Both the position numbers and the translations under genes were made by a program. DNA of 64,000 nt from Escherichia coli 042 (GTDB lineage Bacteria; Pseudomonadota; Gammaproteobacteria; Enterobacterales; Enterobacteriaceae): NCBI RefSeq assembly GCF_000027125.1, contig NC_017626.1; one strand, written 5' to 3'. The notes beneath the pieces were generated by a model that made no database searches, was not told the origin of the DNA, and saw only the letters and a list, made by a program, of their open reading frames with translations. Of this stretch, positions 15,263 through 61,009 are shown piece by piece. How positions within the stretch are numbered: position 1 is the stretch's first letter; each line of letters starts with the position of its first letter.

Positions 15263-17153
15263 GTGTGCCGCAGGAACACAAGATAGCTGCATAAGGATAC
15301 GCAGTTAGCTTTTGTATAAGCTCATAAAGAGATGGTGGAAGGCCCACCGGGATCGGCTGTCGGAAGCAGATTCCAAACCACTTCATGCTGCTGTGGTAAA
15401 GAGCCATGGTAGTGAGCGATGAAGTAAAGCGTGAGTGAAAACTCAGCAGGTAAGATACTCATGAGACGAGTGAACCCGAACCCATGTTGACGCGTCGTAA
15501 ACCAGAGACTGACATCAAAACCGAAGGGGCGTCCAGCCTTCGGGATAAGTCTGCGAGTGAATTCCGAATGCTGCGCAGACGGTGTCCGGCGTAAAGTGGG
15601 CGTGACGGAGTATCAGGCTCTTCCTGGGAACTGCGGGAACCTGTCGTTGTGATGATAAGGGAGAAATGCAAGTCACTGAATTGGCGAGCATGAAAGTACC
15701 GATGCACAGCACAGGGACGGAGCCGTTCGTAGTAGTGATGAAGCTTCTGTAATGGAGGTGGAGCGAAGGGGCGGCATCAGACAGTCTTTGGACAGTGTTC
15801 AACTGAACATGTTCAGGAGGAGACAATGACAAAGACAAAAGCGTTTAACATTGATAAGTCACTGGTGGTCAGCGCGTACAGGCGAGTGAAGACCAGTGCA
15901 GGCGCGGCGGGAATTGATAAGCAATCGCTGGCGGACTTTGATAAACGGTTAGTTGATAATCTGTACAAAATCTGGAACCGACTTTCTTCAGGAAGTTATT
16001 TCCCACCGGCAGTGAAAGCGGTGGCAATTCCGAAGAAATTGGGTGGAGAGAGAATTCTGGGTATCCCGACAGTCAGCGATCGTATCGCGCAGACGGTGGT
16101 AAAACTGGCCTTTGAGCCACAGGTTGAGCCACATTTTCTGGCAGACTCTTACGGCTACAGACCGAATAAATCGGCACTGGATGCTATAGGGGTAACGCGT
16201 AAGCGTTGCTGGTATTACGACTGGGTACTGGAATTTGACATCAAAGGGCTGTTCGATAACATCCCGCACGAACTGATAATGAAAGCCGTGGACAAACACA
16301 ATCCGGCCCGGTGGGTAAAATTGTATATACAGCGGTGGCTGACAGCGCCGATGGTGATGTCAGACGGAGAAGTCAGAGCACGAACAATGGGAACGCCGCA
16401 GGGAGGTGTCATAAGTCCGTTGCTGGCAAACCTGTTCATGCATTATGTGTTTGATAAATGGCTGGCAAAATATTATCCGAAAGTGCCGTGGTATCGATAT
16501 GCTGATGATGGCATTTTGCATTGTCACAGCGAAGCAGAAGCGACTGAAATGCGAGAAGTATTACGCAAAAGATTTAGCGAATGCGGACTGGAAATGCATC
16601 CGGAGAAAACGCGAGTTATCTACTGCAAAGATGGAAGCCGGAAGGGTGATTATGAACATACCATGTTCGACTTTCTGGGGTACACATTCAGGCGACGCGT
16701 AGTAAAGAACGTTAAGCGAAACAGTCTGTTTGTAAGTTTTACCCCCGCAGCGAGCAAATCAGCGCTAAAGGCAATGCGTCGGGAAATCAAAGCGACAGGG
16801 ATAAGGAAAAGAGTGGATTTAAGCATTGAGCAGATAGCGAAATGGATAAATCCAAAACTGAATGGCTGGATAAATTATTACGGGCGATATACCTGTTCGG
16901 AATTATACAGCGTGTTCAGATATATCAATAAAGCACTGGTGAGGTGGGGGCGTAAGAAATATAAAATGCTCAGCCGATACAAGACAAGAGCCTCAAAATT
17001 TCTGGAAGAAATGGCGAAGCGAAGTCCACAGTTGTTTGCCCACTGGCGTCTGAAGATGAGAGGCGGACTTGTTTGATGGGAGCGGTATGAGCCGAGAGGT
17101 TCACGTACCGTTCTGCGAGAGGCTGCGGGGGAGGTTCCTGCGGCCTACTCACC
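15263..17153 (+). mobile_element. Group II intron, same orientation as the host transposase gene
   Basis: Exactly fills the gap between the copy-A junction CTGGACG|TGGTAATG and the uninterrupted copy B; starts GTGTG; encodes an RT/maturase; a domain V-like hairpin (GAGCCGAGAGGTTCACGTACCGTTC) lies near the 3' end. Confidence 0.8.
15826..17076 (+). CDS. Group II intron-encoded reverse transcriptase/maturase
   Basis: 416-aa ORF with RT motifs ([10 protein letters not shown], the YADD box in [12 protein letters not shown]) and a C-terminal maturase-like region. Confidence 0.9.
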
Positions 17154-24841: not shown

Positions 24842-24980
<139 letters not shown>

Positions 24981-26810: not shown

Positions 26811-27569
26811 ATGTCCTTCATGTCTTCGTTCTTTCACGGCAGATTTCTGCATCCAGGCGTGTTTTCGTTATGCGTTTTGCTCCCTTTACTCGCCAGCGCC
26901 ACCACATCACATATCTCTTTCAGCTACGCCGCCCGCCAGCGGATGCAAAACCGTGCGCGTTTATTAAAACAGTACCAAACCCATCTGAAAAAACAGGCCA
27001 GCTATATTGTGGAAGGCAATGCCGAAAGCAGAAAGGCGCTGCGCCAGCACAACCGCGAACAGATAAAACAGCATCCAGAATGGTTTCCTGCGCCGCTCAA
27101 GGCGAGTGACAGACGCTGGCAGGCGCTGGCGGAGAACAACCATTTCTTAAGCAGCGACCATCTGCACAACATCACCGAAGTGGCGATTCACCGCCTGGAG
27201 CAGCAGCTTGGTAAGCCTTACGTCTGGGGCGGCACGCGGCCCGATCAAGGCTTCGACTGTAGCGGGTTGGTTTTTTATGCCTACAACAAGATCCTCGAGG
27301 CGAAGCTCCCGCGCACGGCCAATGAGATGTATCACTACCATCGGGCAACGATTGTGGCGAATAACGACCTGCGCCGGGGAGATTTGCTGTTTTTCCATAT
27401 TCACAGCCGTGAGATTGCCGATCATATGGGCGTGTATCTGGGAGACGGTCAGTTTATCGAGTCGCCGCGCACCGGGGAAACCATTCGGGTAAGTCGGTTA
27501 GCTGAACCTTTCTGGCAGGATCATTTTTTAGGCGCGCGCAGGATTTTGACGGAAGAGACGATTTTGTAG
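26811..27569 (+). CDS. yafL: NlpC/P60-family peptidoglycan peptidase lipoprotein YafL
   Basis: 252-aa ORF with the NlpC/P60 catalytic Cys context (GFDCSGLVFYAY) and His (HMGVYLGDGQFIESP). Confidence 0.85.
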   Translation: MSFMSSFFHGRFLHPGVFSLCVLLPLLASATTSHISFSYAARQRMQNRARLLKQYQTHLKKQASYIVEGNAESRKALRQHNREQIKQHPEWFPAPLKASDRRWQALAENNHFLSSDHLHNITEVAIHRLEQQLGKPYVWGGTRPDQGFDCSGLVFYAYNKILEAKLPRTANEMYHYHRATIVANNDLRRGDLLFFHIHSREIADHMGVYLGDGQFIESPRTGETIRVSRLAEPFWQDHFLGARRILTEETIL

Positions 27570-27655
27570 GACGGATAAGGCGTTCACGCCGCATCCGGCA
27601 ATAGTGCACCGATGCCTGATGCGACGCTGCCGCGTCTTATCATGCCTACGAGTCT
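27568..27655. repeat. REP elements
   Basis: GGATAAGGCGTTCACGCCGCATCCGGCA ... TGCCTGATGCGACGCTGCCGCGTCTTATCATGCCTAC. Confidence 0.8.
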
Positions 27656-28247: not shown

Positions 28248-28665
28248 GCGCGGATGCCTGATGCGACGCAGGCGCGTCTTATCATGCCTACAAACTTGTG
28301 CCGGATCGGTGGGCCGGATAAGGCGTTCACACCGCATCCGGCAATTGTGCACCGGTGCCTGATGCGACGCTGGCGCGTCTTATCATGCCTACAAACCTGT
28401 GCCGGATCGGTGGGCCGGATAAGGCGTTCACACCGCATCCGGTAATTGTGCACCGGTGCCTGATGCGACGCTGGCGCGTCTTATCATGCCTACAAACCTG
28501 TGCCGGATCGGTGGGCTGGATAAGGCGTTCACACCGCATCCGGCAATTGTGCGCAGATGCCTGATGCGACGCTGACGCGTCTTATCATGCCTACAAACTT
28601 GTGCCGGATCGGTAGGCCGGATAAGGCGTTCACGCCGCATCCGGCAATTGTGCACCGATGCCGGA
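28248..28665. repeat. BIME/REP array (about four ~100-bp units) directly downstream of rayT
   Basis: Unit TGCCTGATGCGACGCTGGCGCGTCTTATCATGCCTACAAACCTGTGCCGGATCGGTGGGCCGGATAAGGCGTTCACACCGCATCCGG repeats with about 100-bp period. Confidence 0.85.
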
Positions 28666-54335: not shown

Positions 54336-54420
54336 TGCCTGATGCGACGCTGGCGCGTCTTATCAGGCCTACGAGTCGCCCGTATGTAGGCCGGATAAGG
54401 CGTTCACGCCGCATCCGGCA
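54336..54420. repeat. REP elements between lfgJ and lfgK
   Basis: TGCCTGATGCGACGCTGGCGCGTCTTATCAGGCCTAC ... GTAGGCCGGATAAGGCGTTCACGCCGCATCCGGCA. Confidence 0.8.
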
Positions 54421-56832: not shown

Positions 56833-57810
56833 ATGCAGGTCGGACTTACATCTTCGTCACTCGCCACCGGCGGCGCGCATAGCGCTGCGGTATCGTCGTC
56901 AACCGTTGCGCCCACTCAGGCGGTGCGGCAAAAACTCCCGGCGACGGCGAGTGAATATCCGGCCTCGCCGCTGATTACCACTCGCCCGCAGCGTTACAGC
57001 GTGCAGCTTAACGACCAGCTCACCACGTTGCAGCAGGCGGATCACTATCTCGGGCAACTGGAGCAGCAGTTGCTCGATTATCGTCACAGCCAGCGCAAAG
57101 GCGGGCAGGCGCAGAGTTCGGCGCTGATGCAGATGCTGGACAAACGCACCGCGCTTTCCGGCGGTGCGGTGGACCGCCAGTTGCAGCCAGTGTTGCAGGG
57201 GGAAGCGCGGGTGACTTTTCACTCGCCGGATCTGGCGAATCTGGTACACAATCCCACGCCGGGAACGCGCATGTTCAGCGTCTCTGACGGGCGGCAGACT
57301 CAGCTTTCGGCGGTGATGCTGTCTGAGGATGACAGCGCTGGGCAGTACCAGACGCGGCTGACCAACGCCCTGCGCCGCGTGGGCGTGCAGATGCATCAAA
57401 ACGCCGATGGTATAAGTTTCTCCACCACTGAAAAACAGTGGCCCAACATTGAAAGCACCCTAAGCGTGCGCACCGATGGTGATAAATCAGCGTTTATGCC
57501 ACTAAAAACCTTTGCCGAACCGTCGCAGGCGGACCGCTTAGTGCAAAGCCTGCAACAGGGCGGAGCGGGGATTTCTCAGACGTTAGAAAGCATTAATCAG
57601 CAGCGTGTGCAGATGGCGGTACAGCAGGAAAAGGCGCGGCAGTTGATCGACGGCATGTCGCGCTTCCCGCAAACGGAAAGCGCCGTGCAGGCGTCGGAAA
57701 ATCTCGGCGGCGTGCTGGATAGCGCCAATCATAACTATCAGGTTTTATTGCAGGCGGTGAACGGTCAGGCGCGAATTTCCAGCCAGACGGTGAGGAGTTT
57801 ATTGGGTTAG
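56833..57810 (+). CDS. Hypothetical flagellar-cluster protein (possibly the Flag-2 gene named lafW; assignment from memory, unverified)
   Basis: 325-aa Gln/Ala/Ser-rich ORF directly after flgL; no recognisable catalytic motif. Confidence 0.5.
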   Translation: MQVGLTSSSLATGGAHSAAVSSSTVAPTQAVRQKLPATASEYPASPLITTRPQRYSVQLNDQLTTLQQADHYLGQLEQQLLDYRHSQRKGGQAQSSALMQMLDKRTALSGGAVDRQLQPVLQGEARVTFHSPDLANLVHNPTPGTRMFSVSDGRQTQLSAVMLSEDDSAGQYQTRLTNALRRVGVQMHQNADGISFSTTEKQWPNIESTLSVRTDGDKSAFMPLKTFAEPSQADRLVQSLQQGGAGISQTLESINQQRVQMAVQQEKARQLIDGMSRFPQTESAVQASENLGGVLDSANHNYQVLLQAVNGQARISSQTVRSLLG

Positions 57811-57831
57811 GGTTATTGTCATTGTTGCTTT

Positions 57832-57872
57832 TATAGCTATTAAGCTATAGTTTATCTATAGCATAAAAGCTA
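57832..57872 (+). promoter_or_regulatory. Palindromic operator-like repeats upstream of the toxin gene
   Basis: TATAGCTAT / AAGCTATAG / TCTATAGCA / AAGCTAT: four ATAGC/GCTAT half-sites in about 40 bp immediately 5' of the toxin ATG. Confidence 0.45.
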
Positions 57873-57882
57873 TGAGGGACCG

Positions 57883-58227
57883 ATGATGTGGGACGTCGAG
57901 ACAACGGAGACTTTCGACAACTGGTTTGATGCCCAGACTGTTGCGCTGAAAGAAGATTTACTTGCTGCAATGCTGATTCTTGCTGAGTATGGCCCACAGT
58001 TGGGCAGACCCTTTGCGGATACGGTTAATGATTCACAGTTTTCAAATATGAAAGAATTACGCGTCCAACATCAGGGAAACCCGGTACGTGCTTTTTTTGC
58101 TTTCGATCCTGCGCGCCGTGGCATTGTATTATGTGCGGGTGATAAAACGGGGTTAAATGAGAAAAAGTTTTATCGCGATATGATCAAGCTCGCTGATTCT
58201 GAATACCGTAAGCATCTGAAAAAGTAA
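57883..58227 (+). CDS. RelE/ParE-superfamily toxin (HigB-like, toxin-first arrangement)
   Basis: 114-aa ORF (MMWDVETTETFDNWFD...GPQLGRPFADT...KELRVQHQGNPVRAFFAFDPARRGIVLCAGDKTG) matching the addiction-module killer protein family. Confidence 0.7.
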   Translation: MMWDVETTETFDNWFDAQTVALKEDLLAAMLILAEYGPQLGRPFADTVNDSQFSNMKELRVQHQGNPVRAFFAFDPARRGIVLCAGDKTGLNEKKFYRDMIKLADSEYRKHLKK

Positions 58228-58236
58228 GGAACGATA

Positions 58237-58536
58237 ATGGCTACTCTAAAAGAACTGATGGCAAAGCAAAGCCCTGAAAGCCAGGCGCGTATTGCGGCAA
58301 AAGTTGAGGAAATGCGCCAGACCATCGCCTTGCATCAGCTGAGAGAAGAACTCAATATTTCGCAAACGGAAATGGCGGCAGCGATGGGCATTAAGCAACC
58401 GACTCTTGCAAAAATGGAGCAGGCAGATAACGATCCTCGGTTGTCTACGCTAAAACGCTATGTTGCGGCTTTAGGTGGGGAATTGAGTATCGACGTTAAA
58501 CTGCCGAATGGTAAGAGAATTGCATTTCAGATTTAA
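58237..58536 (+). CDS. HTH (XRE-type) antitoxin, HigA-like
   Basis: 99-aa ORF 10 nt after the toxin gene; HTH region ELNISQTEMAAAMGIKQPTLAKME. Confidence 0.7.
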   Translation: MATLKELMAKQSPESQARIAAKVEEMRQTIALHQLREELNISQTEMAAAMGIKQPTLAKMEQADNDPRLSTLKRYVAALGGELSIDVKLPNGKRIAFQI

Positions 58537-58593
58537 TTTTGGGGTGCATTTTATGAACCGGATTAGATAAAACGGTATCTAATCCGGTAAACA

Positions 58594-59487
58594 TCAGCAT
58601 TTCTGCACAGTATTTAACAACTTCTCTAAATTCTGATACATCGCGCTATTAATATCGCTATTCTGCCAGCTATCCACATTAAAAGTTAATTGCCAGCTAC
58701 CGTTGCACTGGTTGCGCAGAACAATATCACTCTCCAGTCGGTTACGAACATATTTATAATAGGTTGTCATTGTCATATTATGCGCTGACAATAAATTATC
58801 GAGTTTGTCTTTTCCTGGTGCGAGGGTTTGTGACAGTAACGGTACGGAATTATTTTCCTTTCCAGAACTAAGATGAAATATTTTTATTCTTGGACTGTTA
58901 ATTGACTCTTTTACCAGTTGCGGGGCGTCAGGTGTACTTTTCAAGTGTGAATACCCCACGGTTGAGCCAACCAATATAACAGCTGCGGCCAACGCTAACC
59001 CCATCAGTCCTTTATGTTTTTTTCTAACAGGCACATACGGTGTTGTCGAAGATATCTCTTCTGGGGCTGTATCCTGTATCTGGTCGGTAATAATCAGCGC
59101 TTCTGCAGGCGATGACTCCGGCAAAGACACATACTCTTTATTGCATAAGTAACCTTTCTTCGGAATTGTTTTAATAATGTTCTGTTGTTTGCCATCATCG
59201 TCGATAGCAACGCGCAACGCATGGATCGCCGTCGGCAGGCTGTTTCCGCCGACAATACGGTTCTTCCATACTTCGGCACATAAATAAGATCGCGATAAAA
59301 CCACATCGGCATTTTTTGCTAATGTTTCCAGCAAAATAAAATGGTATTCGCCGAGACGACGTGTTTCACCCGTTTCGCAATGTATTAAGGCATTAAGCGA
59401 CGGGTCCATCCGCCAGTTGTTGATAATAATACTCATAGTTGAGTTTACCTTAGCAAGGGATAAATGTTTCCTGATAGTGCTTTGCAT
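58594..59487 (-). CDS. lafZ: ToxR/CadC-like single-pass membrane transcriptional regulator
   Basis: N-terminal OmpR-type winged-helix region, central TM helix GLMGLALAAAVILVGSTVGY, periplasmic C-terminus; AT-rich; alternative start MSIIINNW at 59436. Confidence 0.6.
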   Translation of the reverse strand: MQSTIRKHLSLAKVNSTMSIIINNWRMDPSLNALIHCETGETRRLGEYHFILLETLAKNADVVLSRSYLCAEVWKNRIVGGNSLPTAIHALRVAIDDDGKQQNIIKTIPKKGYLCNKEYVSLPESSPAEALIITDQIQDTAPEEISSTTPYVPVRKKHKGLMGLALAAAVILVGSTVGYSHLKSTPDAPQLVKESINSPRIKIFHLSSGKENNSVPLLSQTLAPGKDKLDNLLSAHNMTMTTYYKYVRNRLESDIVLRNQCNGSWQLTFNVDSWQNSDINSAMYQNLEKLLNTVQKC

Positions 59488-59921
59488 AAAGCACAGTCTT
59501 ATACGTCCCTGAGAAGATGATTTTTCTGCGTGATAATTAATATTTTATGGTGATAAGATTATTCTTAATCACTATATAGCGTGGAAATGTAACGAAATGA
59601 CAGGACAGGTACAATAGCCAAATGTGTACTATTTGCAACGCAATGTAAATTTTGGCATCAGTACATTGAGAACAAAACGCGATAATTGATGACAATCTTA
59701 ACTATATCAAGCGTTTGATAAAGACATATTTTGATACCTGGCCATGTGGCAGATATTGCTAATAATCTTTTTATCTGAATTTAAACTCTGCTTTTTTTAG
59801 CTAAAAGTGGCATCGGATAATACGTGGCGAAAAAATTATAACGGCGATTTTAAGTTTGCTCCTGAGGTGTCGTTTTTACAGGGTATCGAAACGAAAACGA
59901 TTAATCCCAAGGAGCAGTATC

Positions 59922-60836
59922 ATGTTATCTATTAACACCAATAACGCCTCAATGGCCGCCGTTAATGCAATCAGCAAAAGCAGCTCTTCTCTGTCTACAT
60001 CTATGGAACGCCTGGCGACAGGTAACCGGATTAACTCTTCTGCCGATGACGCCGCAGGCAAACAAATTGCTAACCGTCTGACAGCACAGTCCAGCGGTAT
60101 GGGTGTTGCGCTGAGCAACATCAATGATGCCACCGCGATGCTGCAAACCGCTGACAGCATGTTCGACGAAATGTCTGACGTGCTGGGTCGTATGAAAGAC
60201 CTGTCAACTCAGGCAGCGAACGGCACCTACAGCGACGACGACCTGCAGGCGATGCAGGACGAATACGACGAACTGGGCCAGCAGATGTCTGACATGCTGC
60301 AAAACACCACTTACGGCGGCACCAACCTGTTCGGTGTTTCCGGTACCAGCAACACCGGTACTGACGGTCTGTTCCAGAGCGCGGTAACTTTCCAGGTGGG
60401 CGCGGAATCTTCCGACACCATGACCGTGAATATTTCAAGCCAGCTGAATACCCTGGTGACGGATCTTTCTGCAATCAGCAACTCCTTTAGTGCGGATCAG
60501 GCTGACACCACTGGCACCGCAGGCGTTTCTGGCGGTACTGAGCTGACTGCGTCTGGCTCGGCTAACCAGATGATCACCAGCATCTCTACCGCGATGGATG
60601 ACGTGTCTCAGATCCAGTCCAAGCTGGGTGCCTCTATCAACCGTCTGAACGACACTGCCAACAACCTGACCAGTATGCAAGACAACACCGAAGTCGCTAT
60701 CGGTAACATCATGGATACCGACTACGCGACGGAAGCGTCCAATATGACCAAACAGCAAGTGCTGATGCAGACTGGCATCACCATGCTGAAACAGTCCAAC
60801 AGCATGTCCAGCATGGTTTCCAGCCTGCTGCAGTAA
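59922..60836 (+). CDS. lafA: Lateral flagellin
   Basis: Start at MLSINTNNASMAAVNAI with RBS AAGGAG; conserved flagellin N- and C-terminal domains, short central region (304 aa). Confidence 0.9.
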   Translation: MLSINTNNASMAAVNAISKSSSSLSTSMERLATGNRINSSADDAAGKQIANRLTAQSSGMGVALSNINDATAMLQTADSMFDEMSDVLGRMKDLSTQAANGTYSDDDLQAMQDEYDELGQQMSDMLQNTTYGGTNLFGVSGTSNTGTDGLFQSAVTFQVGAESSDTMTVNISSQLNTLVTDLSAISNSFSADQADTTGTAGVSGGTELTASGSANQMITSISTAMDDVSQIQSKLGASINRLNDTANNLTSMQDNTEVAIGNIMDTDYATEASNMTKQQVLMQTGITMLKQSNSMSSMVSSLLQ

Positions 60837-60993: not shown

Positions 60994-61009
60994 TGGCACG
61001 CCTTTTGCC
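60994..61009 (+). promoter_or_regulatory. Sigma-54 (-24/-12) promoter upstream of lafB
   Basis: TGGCAC-GCCTT-TTGCC, consensus spacing, about 32 nt upstream of the lafB ATG. Confidence 0.75.

What the first reader, a model, noticed from the sequence alone, without database searches (positions are those of the whole stretch)
58594..59921. AT-rich ToxR-like membrane regulator divergent from the flagellin gene
The lafZ-like gene and the 430-bp spacer to lafA are far more AT-rich than the rest of Flag-2. The regulator has a cytoplasmic winged-helix domain, one TM helix and a periplasmic domain, so it could couple an envelope or surface signal to flagellin expression. No consensus sigma-54 promoter is present upstream of lafA, and I could not find a clean sigma-28 motif either.
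Basis: partly seen in the sequence, partly recalled or inferred. Interest (0 to 1): 0.4.

Follow-up and report, generated by a model that had tools for sequence, protein, structure and literature searches.

The report
Membrane-anchored ToxR/VtrA-type regulator beside lateral flagellin

Summary
lafZ is 42% GC and the lafZ-lafA spacer 35% GC, against 55.5% for Flag-2. The low-GC island also contains an inserted toxin-antitoxin pair.

- lafA does have a promoter: TTAAGTTT-N11-GTCGTTTT at 59850-59876, preceded by an UP-like A/T tract and conserved in 53 of 53 spacers. Weaker copies lie upstream of lfgK and lfgM. It differs from the E. coli FliA consensus in the -10 element, so a consensus scan misses it.
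- In most other genera a 150-160-aa membrane protein gene overlaps the lafZ stop, in the position of ToxS/VtrC. Its start codon lies exactly 14 nt before the terminal Cys codon in 54 loci. Escherichia and Pseudocitrobacter lack it, yet lafZ there is under purifying selection.
- The conserved non-promoter blocks surround a candidate lafZ promoter, and lafZ persists in genomes without lafA.

Direct control of lafA by LafZ is unproven. lafZ has been a named gene since 2005, so the interest is moderate.

The parts
58594..59436 (-). lafZ coding sequence (280 aa from the conserved start; the ORF is open up to 59487)
59113..59436 (-). cytoplasmic winged-helix DNA-binding domain (residues 1-108)
   Evidence: Pfam PF00486. 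ToxR E 1e-17 and CadC 8e-14 in the PDB profile search. pLDDT above 90. dN/dS 0.04-0.07.
59017..59112 (-). disordered juxtamembrane linker (residues 109-140), ending in the positively charged stretch VRKKHK
   Evidence: pLDDT 46-53. Hypervariable in the alignment. dN/dS 0.4-1.2.
58939..59016 (-). single transmembrane helix (residues 141-166)
   Evidence: AF2 helix at 141-166. Kyte-Doolittle maximum of 2.0 at residue 143, with positive charges on the N-terminal side.
58597..58938 (-). periplasmic beta2-alpha-beta3-alpha domain (residues 167-280) with invariant Cys244 and C-terminal Cys280
59437..59921 (.). AT-rich divergent lafZ-lafA spacer (485 bp, 34.8% GC)
59850..59876 (+). lafA promoter of lateral sigma-28 (LafS) type: -35 TTAAGTTT (59850-59857), 11-nt spacer, -10 GTCGTTTT (59869-59876). 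The predicted transcription start is near 59884.
   Evidence: Present 69-110 nt upstream of the lafA ATG in 53 of 53 spacers. PWM score 30.3 bits. Three hits of at least 15 bits in Flag-2, against 0.15 in shuffles.
59830..59840 (+). A/T tract (AAAAAATTATA) 9-20 nt upstream of the -35, resembling an UP element
   Evidence: The only other positionally conserved element across genera, with consensus AAAAATTTTTT. The reading as an UP element is inference.
59884..59921 (+). predicted lafA 5' UTR, almost invariant from Escherichia to Pseudocitrobacter, with the inverted repeat ATCGAAACGAAAACGAT and the SD AAGGAG
59611..59638 (-). candidate sigma-70 promoter of lafZ: -35 TTGCAA (59638-59633), 16-nt spacer, -10 TATTGT (59616-59611)
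   Evidence: Both hexamers are conserved from Escherichia to Citrobacter and Phytobacter while the spacer sequence varies. No transcription start has been mapped.
59633..59649 (+). conserved block A, TTGCAACGCAATGTAAA. It is a direct repeat TGCAA-N5-TGTAA that overlaps the candidate lafZ -35, and is a candidate LafZ operator.
   Evidence: 0-2 mismatches in 17 related loci at a fixed distance from the lafZ start
59584..59593 (+). conserved block C, GAAATGTAAC. It is a second AATGTAA copy 56 bp from block A and lies just downstream of the candidate lafZ start site.
59753..59767 (+). conserved block B, ATATTGCTAATAATC, of unassigned function (about -130 from the predicted lafA start)
59922..60836 (+). 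lafA, lateral flagellin
   Evidence: NCBIfam NF033376, 667 bits against a cut-off of 440
57883..58536 (+). inserted toxin-antitoxin pair (Gp49/RelE-like toxin 57883-58227; HTH_3 antitoxin 58237-58536) between lafW and lafZ. It forms part of the low-GC island.
   Evidence: PMC3032704
54433..54466 (+). weaker LafS-type promoter match upstream of lfgK
   Evidence: 15.8 bits
46768..46801 (-). weaker LafS-type promoter match upstream of lfgM
   Evidence: 16.8 bits in the window scan; 16.3 bits for the CE0007a copy
60994..61009 (+). sigma-54-type promoter TGGCACGCCTTTTGCC upstream of lafB, so sigma-54 control begins after lafA
   Evidence: 10 of 11 positions

Best explanation
lafZ encodes a bitopic inner-membrane transcription factor of the ToxR/VtrA 'co-component' superfamily. 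Its parts are an N-terminal cytoplasmic winged-helix domain, a flexible linker, one TM helix and a small periplasmic beta2-alpha-beta3-alpha domain. A conserved Cys pair in that domain probably forms a disulfide.

In nearly all other Flag-2 loci the gene is translationally coupled to an overlapping gene for a 150-160-aa membrane-anchored periplasmic protein, in the position of ToxS/VtrC. The Escherichia/Pseudocitrobacter lineage has lost that gene and keeps a 'solo' LafZ that is still under purifying selection.

lafA itself is transcribed from a conserved promoter of lateral sigma-28 (LafS) type with an UP-like tract. Flagellin expression is therefore primarily tied to the LafS/LfgM checkpoint.

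The mechanism I think most likely, which is inferred and not shown, is as follows.
1. LafZ binds the conserved TGCAA-N5-TGTAA and AATGTAA elements that bracket its own sigma-70-type promoter. This gives autoregulation.
2. It acts as a signal-dependent gate or anti-silencer of the AT-rich, probably H-NS-bound, divergent region.
3. It is thus an extra input layered on the LafK, LafS, lafA hierarchy, and not the activator that recruits polymerase to lafA.

In this particular strain lfgC is frameshifted. The flagellar output is therefore probably dead whatever LafZ does.
For: Identity and architecture. The secondary-structure order beta2-alpha-beta3-alpha is the one that defines VtrA/ToxR periplasmic domains (PMC9214523).

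Partner gene. Its ATG lies exactly 14 nt upstream of the terminal Cys codon in 54 loci. It is absent from Escherichia and Pseudocitrobacter, where the lafZ-lafW gap is about 60 bp, and there is no Escherichia member among the 115 family hits.

Selection: dN/dS is 0.04-0.07 for the wHTH domain and 0.03-0.14 for the periplasmic domain. The gene and spacer are present in 1256 of 5426 complete E. coli genomes.

lafA promoter.

lafZ-anchored blocks and the candidate lafZ promoter.

AT-richness: the spacer is AT-rich in 52 of 52 loci.

Family behaviour: ToxR-family factors bind low-GC DNA and antagonise H-NS (PMC4829181).

Expression: LafA was not expressed in strain EC958 in LB at 28 or 37 C (PMC4637896).

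This strain: lfgC is frameshifted (PMC2808357).
Against: - There is no experimental datum on LafZ in any organism. 'lafZ' occurs in only three relevant papers, all comparative.
- The binding motif is a guess from conservation. Within E. coli alone, TGTAA pentamers are not enriched, and the V. cholerae ToxR box is absent.
- VtrA/VtrC is described as an obligate heterodimer (PMC9214523), so a partnerless LafZ may be unstable or constitutive.
- The partner's fold was not modelled here.
- H-NS occupancy was not tested.
- No pan-genus conserved site other than the promoter and the A/T tract was found at a fixed distance from lafA.
Confidence: 0.55

Rival explanations
1. One reading: LafZ is the dedicated direct activator of lafA. 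It binds just upstream of the lafA promoter and couples an envelope or surface cue to flagellin synthesis.
For: lafZ and lafA are divergent in every locus that holds both, 52 in all. The long AT-rich spacer has conserved blocks, including block B about 130 nt upstream of the lafA start. ToxR-family regulators usually act on adjacent genes (PMC9214523, PMC4829181).
Against: lafA has a complete, strongly conserved sigma-28-type promoter with an UP-like tract, and no other positionally conserved site across genera. Blocks A and C keep a constant distance to lafZ, not to lafA. lafZ with its partner is retained where lafA is absent.
Confidence: 0.22
2. LafZ acts mainly elsewhere. It either sits at the top of the Flag-2 hierarchy (for example controlling lafK or lafS) or controls non-flagellar genes, and its adjacency to lafA is historical.
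For: Remnants that hold only regulators, arranged lafS / lafZ-partner / lafK, occur with intact ORFs in Winslowiella, Erwinia, Silvania and Kosakonia. The same arrangement occurs in Limnobaculum, but lafZ is truncated there. Many Erwinia and Pantoea genomes keep only lafZ and its partner.
Against: The conserved spacer blocks do not recur upstream of lafK or anywhere else in the window. No target is known.
Confidence: 0.18
3. In E. coli lafZ is a functionless relic. It has lost its co-component, sits in a silent locus, and is low in GC because selection is relaxed.
For: The partner gene is lost. Flag-2 is not expressed under laboratory conditions (PMC4637896). lfgC is frameshifted in this strain. 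Protein identity to orthologues is far lower than for the neighbouring genes.
Against: dN/dS is 0.03-0.14 in both folded domains across Escherichia and Pseudocitrobacter. Every invariant wHTH residue and both Cys are retained. The ORF is intact in all eight compared alleles and was annotated as an ordinary transcriptional regulator in the listed RefSeq records.
Confidence: 0.05

Closest known systems
VtrA/VtrC of Vibrio parahaemolyticus (bile-acid co-component receptor)
   Different: Periplasmic sequence identity is 10%. E. coli LafZ has no co-component, whereas VtrA/VtrC is an obligate heterodimer. The ligand is unknown. LafZ has a conserved Cys pair. The genomic context is a flagellar locus, not T3SS2.
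ToxR/ToxS of Vibrio
   Different: The ToxR box TNAAA-N5-TNAAA is not in the spacer. There is no toxS-like gene in E. coli. There is no detectable periplasmic sequence similarity.
TcpP/TcpH of Vibrio cholerae
   Same: It is a membrane wHTH regulator with an overlapping partner gene and periplasmic cysteines. The published TcpP site, TGTAA-N6-TGTAA (PMC4829181), resembles the conserved TGCAA-N5-TGTAA and AATGTAA blocks here.
   Different: The resemblance of motifs is a lead, not a test. The wHTH is much more weakly related (E 0.58).
YqeI/YqeJ, GrvA/FidL, MarT/FidL and PsaE/PsaF (enterobacterial co-component cassettes, Kinch et al. 2022)
   Same: They have the same two-gene cassette logic and fast-evolving periplasmic parts (PMC9214523). 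The Yersinia pair YP3283/YP3282 in that paper is a 348-aa regulator whose overlap with its partner includes the Cys codon, so it may be the Yersinia LafZ pair. This was not verified.
   Different: That paper never mentions flagella or Flag-2. Most of those periplasmic domains lack the C-terminal helix that LafZ, VtrA and ToxR have (PMC9214523).
CadC of E. coli
   Same: It has a ToxR-like wHTH (E 8e-14) and is membrane-anchored. PGAP often names LafZ a 'CadC family transcriptional regulator'.

Membership tests
ToxR/VtrA-type membrane-bound transcription factors (co-component superfamily) | N-terminal cytoplasmic OmpR/PhoB-type winged helix without a receiver domain | tested here: met
   PF00486 at 51 bits against a cut-off of 26.2. 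ToxR DNA-binding domain E 1e-17. The wHTH starts at residue 1.
ToxR/VtrA-type membrane-bound transcription factors (co-component superfamily) | single transmembrane helix, N-in / C-out | tested here: met
   AF2 helix at 141-166. Hydropathy peak of 2.0 at residue 143, and KKHK on the N-terminal side. This is a prediction only.
ToxR/VtrA-type membrane-bound transcription factors (co-component superfamily) | periplasmic beta2-alpha-beta3-alpha 'input modulator' fold | tested here: met
ToxR/VtrA-type membrane-bound transcription factors (co-component superfamily) | periplasmic cysteine pair forming an intramolecular disulfide | not testable with these tools
   Two Cys are invariant in 49 of 49 sequences.
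ToxR/VtrA-type membrane-bound transcription factors (co-component superfamily) | downstream, usually overlapping, gene for a membrane-anchored periplasmic co-component (ToxS/VtrC/TcpH-like) | tested here: not met
   It is absent in the window and in all Escherichia and Pseudocitrobacter loci. A candidate is present in about 60 of 80 loci of other genera, with a fixed -14 nt overlap.
ToxR/VtrA-type membrane-bound transcription factors (co-component superfamily) | binding to AT-rich direct repeats near the regulated promoter | tested here: inconclusive
   There is no TNAAA-N5-TNAAA in the spacer. A conserved TGCAA-N5-TGTAA overlaps the candidate lafZ promoter. There are no binding data.
CadC (lysine decarboxylation activator) equivalog | full-length match to NF007540 and a large two-subdomain periplasmic pH sensor | tested here: not met
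   33.8 bits against a cut-off of 400, matching the wHTH only. The periplasmic domain is 114 aa.
OmpR/PhoB two-component response regulators | N-terminal receiver domain with a phospho-acceptor Asp | tested here: not met
   All response-regulator models match only their C-terminal DNA-binding part, far below cut-off. No receiver domain was found by Pfam.
sigma-28 (FliA/LafS) class-3 flagellar promoters (for the lafA upstream site) | TAAA-type -35 and GCCGATAA-type -10, 11-12 nt apart, upstream of late flagellar genes | tested here: inconclusive
   The -35 matches 7 of 8 positions and the spacing is 11 nt, but the -10 is GTCGTTTT, 4 of 8 against the FliA consensus. Support comes from conservation in 53 of 53 spacers and from recurrence upstream of lfgK and lfgM. 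Dependence on LafS needs experiment.

The most novel reading that the evidence does not exclude
E. coli LafZ is a naturally 'solo' VtrA/ToxR-type sensor. It works without the co-component that the superfamily is thought to need. More broadly, LafZ and its partner form an autonomous signalling module with LafK and LafS, and that module outlives the flagellum it once controlled: remnants holding only the regulators occur in at least four genera. This would imply a regulon beyond Flag-2 and an unknown periplasmic, possibly lipid, signal for lateral flagella in enterobacteria.
Probability: 0.2. Interest if true: 0.6.

Novelty: new member of a known kind. Interest (0 to 1): 0.38.

Why it matters
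Flag-2 is carried by about a quarter of complete E. coli genomes (1256 of 5426) and by many Enterobacterales, yet it is silent in the laboratory and no inducing signal is known. Three results make that question testable.
- LafZ can now be placed in the VtrA/ToxR co-component superfamily. This points to a periplasmic, possibly lipid or bile-type, cue, and to the hypothetical gene in 'variable region 2' as a candidate sensor.
- The conserved LafS-type promoter gives a concrete reporter for lafA.
- The partnerless E. coli lineage is a natural experiment on whether these regulators need their co-component.

None of this changes the basic picture. lafZ was already listed as a putative transmembrane regulator.

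Tried and rejected
- The E. coli FliA consensus TAAAGTTT-N11-GCCGATAA does not single out the lafA promoter. It scores 11/16, the same as background sites.
- A sigma-54 scan found nothing in the spacer.
- The ToxR box TNAAA-N5-TNAAA has no match in the spacer, and 4 in the whole window against 2.6 expected.
- TcpP-type TGTAA repeats are not enriched within E. coli alone.
- The spacer blocks do not recur upstream of lafK or elsewhere in the window.
- Rfam found no family in 57700-60100.
- Profile searches of the periplasmic domain and of the partner family against Pfam and PDB sequences found nothing.
- PADLOC found nothing for LafZ.
- The sigma-70 consensus scan of the spacer was uninformative, with 9 hits against 4.5 expected.
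- The afdb50 fold library was unavailable.
- Ren et al. 2005 is not held. What is said here about the original annotation rests on later papers that cite it.
- An attempt to link Kinch et al.'s YP3283/YP3282 to Yersinia LafZ through cluster names was inconclusive.
- Recent horizontal acquisition as the cause of the low GC was rejected. lafZ is syntenic in every Flag-2 locus examined, and the spacer is AT-rich in 52 of 52 loci. The inserted toxin-antitoxin pair is a separate event: only 71 genomes cover at least 80% of the TA-containing query, against 1256 for the lafZ and spacer query.
Full report
WHAT THE WINDOW IS. The 2.2 kb around the finding is 100% identical to several complete E. coli chromosomes. 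There it is annotated as lafW (hypothetical), a RelE/ParE toxin, an HTH protein, a 'transcriptional regulator' and lafA. The window is the Flag-2 (lateral-flagella-like) locus. It carries the lfgC frameshift and the toxin-antitoxin pair between lafW and lafZ. Both were described for the enteroaggregative strain 042 (PMC3032704, PMC2808357).

THE OBSERVATION. It is confirmed.
- lafZ is 41.9% GC (GC3 43%) and the spacer 34.6-34.8%. lafA is 53.6%, lafW 59.5% and Flag-2 as a whole 55.5%.
- The five lowest 500-bp windows of the whole locus lie at 59307-59956. The lowest window outside the island is 43.4%.
- The ORF is open from 59487. The start supported by RefSeq, by 50 or more homologues and by a conserved Shine-Dalgarno sequence is 59436, giving 280 aa. 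The spacer is therefore 485 bp.
- The low-GC island also holds the inserted toxin-antitoxin pair at 57883-58536. Only 71 genomes cover at least 80% of the query that includes this pair, while 1256 genomes carry lafZ and the spacer.
- AT-richness of the spacer is not peculiar to E. coli. In 52 loci from about 25 genera the lafZ-lafA spacer is 29-43% GC and 413-1052 bp long. lafZ is lower in GC than its surroundings in 51 of 52 loci, most strongly in Escherichia and Citrobacter.

THE PROTEIN.
- Pfam finds only Trans_reg_C. NCBIfam finds nothing near its cut-offs; the best hit is CadC at 33.8 bits against a cut-off of 400.
- A profile of 53 homologues matches the V. cholerae ToxR DNA-binding domain best among all solved structures (E 1e-17), then CadC (8e-14), then response regulators.
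- AlphaFold with this alignment gives a confident wHTH at residues 1-105, a disordered linker, a helix at 141-166 that coincides with the hydropathy maximum, and a confident alpha/beta domain at 173-280.
- The periplasmic domain has no Pfam family and no relative among PDB sequences. Modelled alone, it has pLDDT 91 and the element order beta2-alpha-beta3-alpha.
- Beta2-alpha-beta3-alpha is the element set that Kinch et al. use to define the VtrA/ToxR 'input modulator' superfamily (PMC9214523).
- Two cysteines are invariant, Cys244 and the C-terminal Cys280, and a tryptophan is nearly invariant. This parallels the ToxR disulfide (PMC7265457).

The ToxR-like architecture is therefore real. CadC membership is not.

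A PARTNER GENE THAT E. COLI LACKS.
- In about 60 of the 80 related loci, a 151-160-aa ORF with an N-terminal hydrophobic anchor follows lafZ on the same strand and overlaps its end.
- In 54 loci its start codon lies exactly 14 nt upstream of the terminal Cys codon. The conserved LafZ C-terminal motif L-N-E-M-x-x-C and the partner's N-terminus M-K-W/C are therefore encoded by the same bases in two frames.
- The family has 115 clusters. All are called 'hypothetical', none has a Pfam domain and none comes from Escherichia.
- This is the position and size of ToxS, VtrC and TcpH, and overlapping genes are a hallmark of the co-component superfamily (PMC9214523).
It may already have been modelled as 'YP3282' in Yersinia by Kinch et al., but I could not verify that.
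- De Maayer et al. treat the region between lafW and lafZ as a variable 'cargo' region that on average encodes one, mostly hypothetical, protein (PMC6993521). That typical single gene may well be this partner.
- In Escherichia and Pseudocitrobacter the lafZ-lafW gap is about 60 bp, or the toxin-antitoxin insert. The motif has become L-N-T-V-Q-K-C, which destroys the partner's ATG.
- Even so, dN/dS in this clade is 0.04-0.07 for the wHTH and 0.03-0.14 for the periplasmic domain, against 0.3-1.2 for the linker and TM. The solo gene is being maintained.
- LafZ also has much lower protein identity than its neighbours. Between E. coli and Pseudocitrobacter, LafA is 99-100% identical, LafW 93-95% and LafZ 63-67%. 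The middle of the gene cannot be aligned at DNA level although the flanks are 91-93% identical.

THE lafA PROMOTER.
- Stacking the upstream regions from all loci shows TTTAA(G/T)TTT, 11-12 nt, then GTCGTTT(T/A), 69-110 nt before the lafA ATG in all 53 spacers.
- In the window the -35 is at 59850-59857 and the -10 at 59869-59876.
- A two-block weight matrix built from these sites scores 30.3 bits here. In the Flag-2 part of the window only two further sites reach 15 bits. They lie directly upstream of lfgK and lfgM, the counterparts of the flagellar genes known to have class-3 promoters (the class-3 assignment is from established knowledge of Flag-1). Three sites are observed against 0.15 in shuffles.
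- The only other element conserved at a fixed position across genera is an AAAAATTTTTT tract 9-20 nt upstream of the -35. It fits the distal UP-element consensus, but that reading rests on my own knowledge and is an inference.
- There is no sigma-54 site before lafA. There is one before lafB (60994) and a perfect one before lfgB (47580).
- lafA is thus best read as a LafS-dependent late gene.

THE REST OF THE SPACER.
- Between Escherichia, Pseudocitrobacter, Citrobacter and Phytobacter, where LafZ identity is 48-100%, three blocks are conserved. They are TTGCAAC..AATGTAAA (59633-59649), GAAATGTAAC (59584-59593) and ATATT.CTAATAATC (59753-59767).
- Their distance to the lafZ start varies less than their distance to lafA (about 50-70 bp against 90-95 bp across these loci).
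- Read on the lafZ strand, the first block contains TTGCAA. Sixteen variable bases later comes a conserved TATTGT (59616-59611). This is the signature of a sigma-70 promoter with a 5' UTR of roughly 165 nt.
- The first block is also a direct repeat, TGCAA-N5-TGTAA, with one-turn spacing. A second AATGTAA lies 56 bp away, just downstream of the predicted start.
- Such pentamer repeats resemble the published TcpP site TGTAA-N6-TGTAA (PMC4829181). This is a lead only.
- The ToxR box is absent. The blocks do not recur upstream of lafK or elsewhere in the window.
- In the Enterobacter/Lelliottia/Kluyvera clade a different conserved sigma-70-like block lies 250-280 nt upstream of lafZ.

WHERE lafZ SURVIVES WITHOUT lafA.
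- Twenty-eight of the 80 loci have no lafA divergent from lafZ. Nine of these still keep lafW, lfgL and lfgK next to lafZ, and the other 19 have no Flag-2 structural gene within 6 kb.
- In Winslowiella, Erwinia mallotivora, Silvania and Kosakonia the arrangement is lafS divergent from lafZ-partner, followed by lafK, with no structural genes between them. The same arrangement occurs in Limnobaculum, where lafZ is broken.
- Many Erwinia and Pantoea genomes keep just lafZ and its partner amid unrelated genes.
- This argues that LafZ belongs with the Flag-2 regulators and that its role is not limited to lafA.

HOW IT MOST LIKELY WORKS. Three things are shown: the membership-type architecture, the loss of the partner with continued constraint, and the conserved lafA promoter. 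The rest is inferred. LafZ, held in the membrane, binds AT-rich repeats around its own promoter. Like ToxR at H-NS-bound DNA (PMC4829181), it conditionally opens the divergent region. LafS then drives lafA once the hook-basal body checkpoint is passed. In E. coli the input must be read by the periplasmic domain alone, through its stability or disulfide state. That LafA is not made by strain EC958 in LB at 28 or 37 C (PMC4637896) fits a locus waiting for an unknown cue. In the present strain the lfgC frameshift probably blocks assembly, and thus LafS release, whatever LafZ does (PMC2808357).

NOVELTY AND VERDICT. lafZ has been listed as a putative transmembrane regulator since 2005 (cited in PMC6993521, PMC7526173), and no functional study exists. 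Four points appear not to have been reported in the papers I could read:
- the assignment to the VtrA/ToxR co-component superfamily;
- the fixed-overlap partner gene and its loss in Escherichia;
- the lateral-type sigma-28 promoter;
- the regulator-only remnants.

They make this a new member of a known kind, with a partnerless variant in E. coli, and not a new kind of system. Interest is moderate.

Noticed in passing
window 57810-58592: A 781-bp insertion carries a Gp49/RelE-like toxin (57883-58227) and an HTH_3 antitoxin (58237-58536) between lafW and lafZ. Only 71 genomes cover at least 80% of the TA-containing query, against 1256 that carry lafZ and the spacer. It is already known from strain 042.
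   Followed up: partly
window 47970-48403: lfgC (the rod protein FlgC homologue) is frameshifted. The reading frame ends after about 21 codons and resumes in another frame, whereas strain CE0007a has an intact 144-aa protein. This is the same defect reported for strain 042, so Flag-2 is probably non-functional in this strain.
   Followed up: partly
L010-L082, immediately downstream of the lafZ homologue (e.g. L011 6929-7408): An uncharacterised family of 151-160-aa membrane-anchored proteins has no Pfam domain and is always annotated 'hypothetical'. Its ATG lies exactly 14 nt upstream of LafZ's terminal Cys codon in 54 loci. It sits in the position of ToxS/VtrC and may be the typical single 'cargo' gene of Flag-2 variable region 2.
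   Followed up: partly
L036, L041, L047, L058 (also L075, L062, L032): These are Flag-2 remnants that hold only regulators: lafS divergent from lafZ-partner, followed by lafK, with all structural genes gone. They occur in at least three enterobacterial families. Several Erwinia and Pantoea genomes keep only lafZ and its partner.
   Followed up: partly
window 58794-59128 compared with L008/L009: The linker, TM and first part of the periplasmic region of lafZ cannot be aligned at DNA level between E. coli and Pseudocitrobacter, although the flanking Flag-2 DNA is 91-93% identical and LafA is 99-100% identical. This is local hyper-divergence or an allelic replacement.
   Followed up: partly
window 60994-61009 and 47580-47595: There are sigma-54-type promoters upstream of lafB (TGGCACGCCTTTTGCC) and lfgB (TGGCACAGCGATTGCT, 11 of 11 positions). 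lafA and lafB therefore appear to be under different sigma factors although they are adjacent.
   Followed up: no
window 59884-59921: The predicted lafA 5' UTR is almost invariant between Escherichia and Pseudocitrobacter. It contains the inverted repeat ATCGAAACGAAAACGAT next to the SD AAGGAG, so it is a possible site of post-transcriptional control.
   Followed up: no
L040, L043, L044, L061, L079, L081, L082 (about 195-250 nt upstream of lafA): A second match to the sigma-28-like motif lies upstream of the main one in loci of Cedecea, Lelliottia, Enterobacter, Yersinia and an unclassified Enterobacterales isolate. These may be tandem lafA promoters.
   Followed up: no
window 24846-24923, 27569-27646, 28312-28591, 51083-51159: Six REP-type elements reach the Rfam naRNA4 (RF02564) gathering score. 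They include three tandem copies just outside lfhA and one in the lfgF-lfgG spacer. BLAST shows further related copies, including one at 54336-54420 in the lfgJ-lfgK spacer, which is expanded to four tandem copies in locus L006.
   Followed up: no
window 15334-17153: A group II intron (Rfam RF01999 and RF00029) with a 416-aa ORF lies in a low-GC stretch (33-45% GC) upstream of Flag-2.
   Followed up: no
window 58558-58587: A perfect 12-bp-stem hairpin, CCGGATTAGATA-N6-TATCTAATCCGG, lies between the convergent ends of the antitoxin gene and lafZ. It has no clear T-tract.
   Followed up: no
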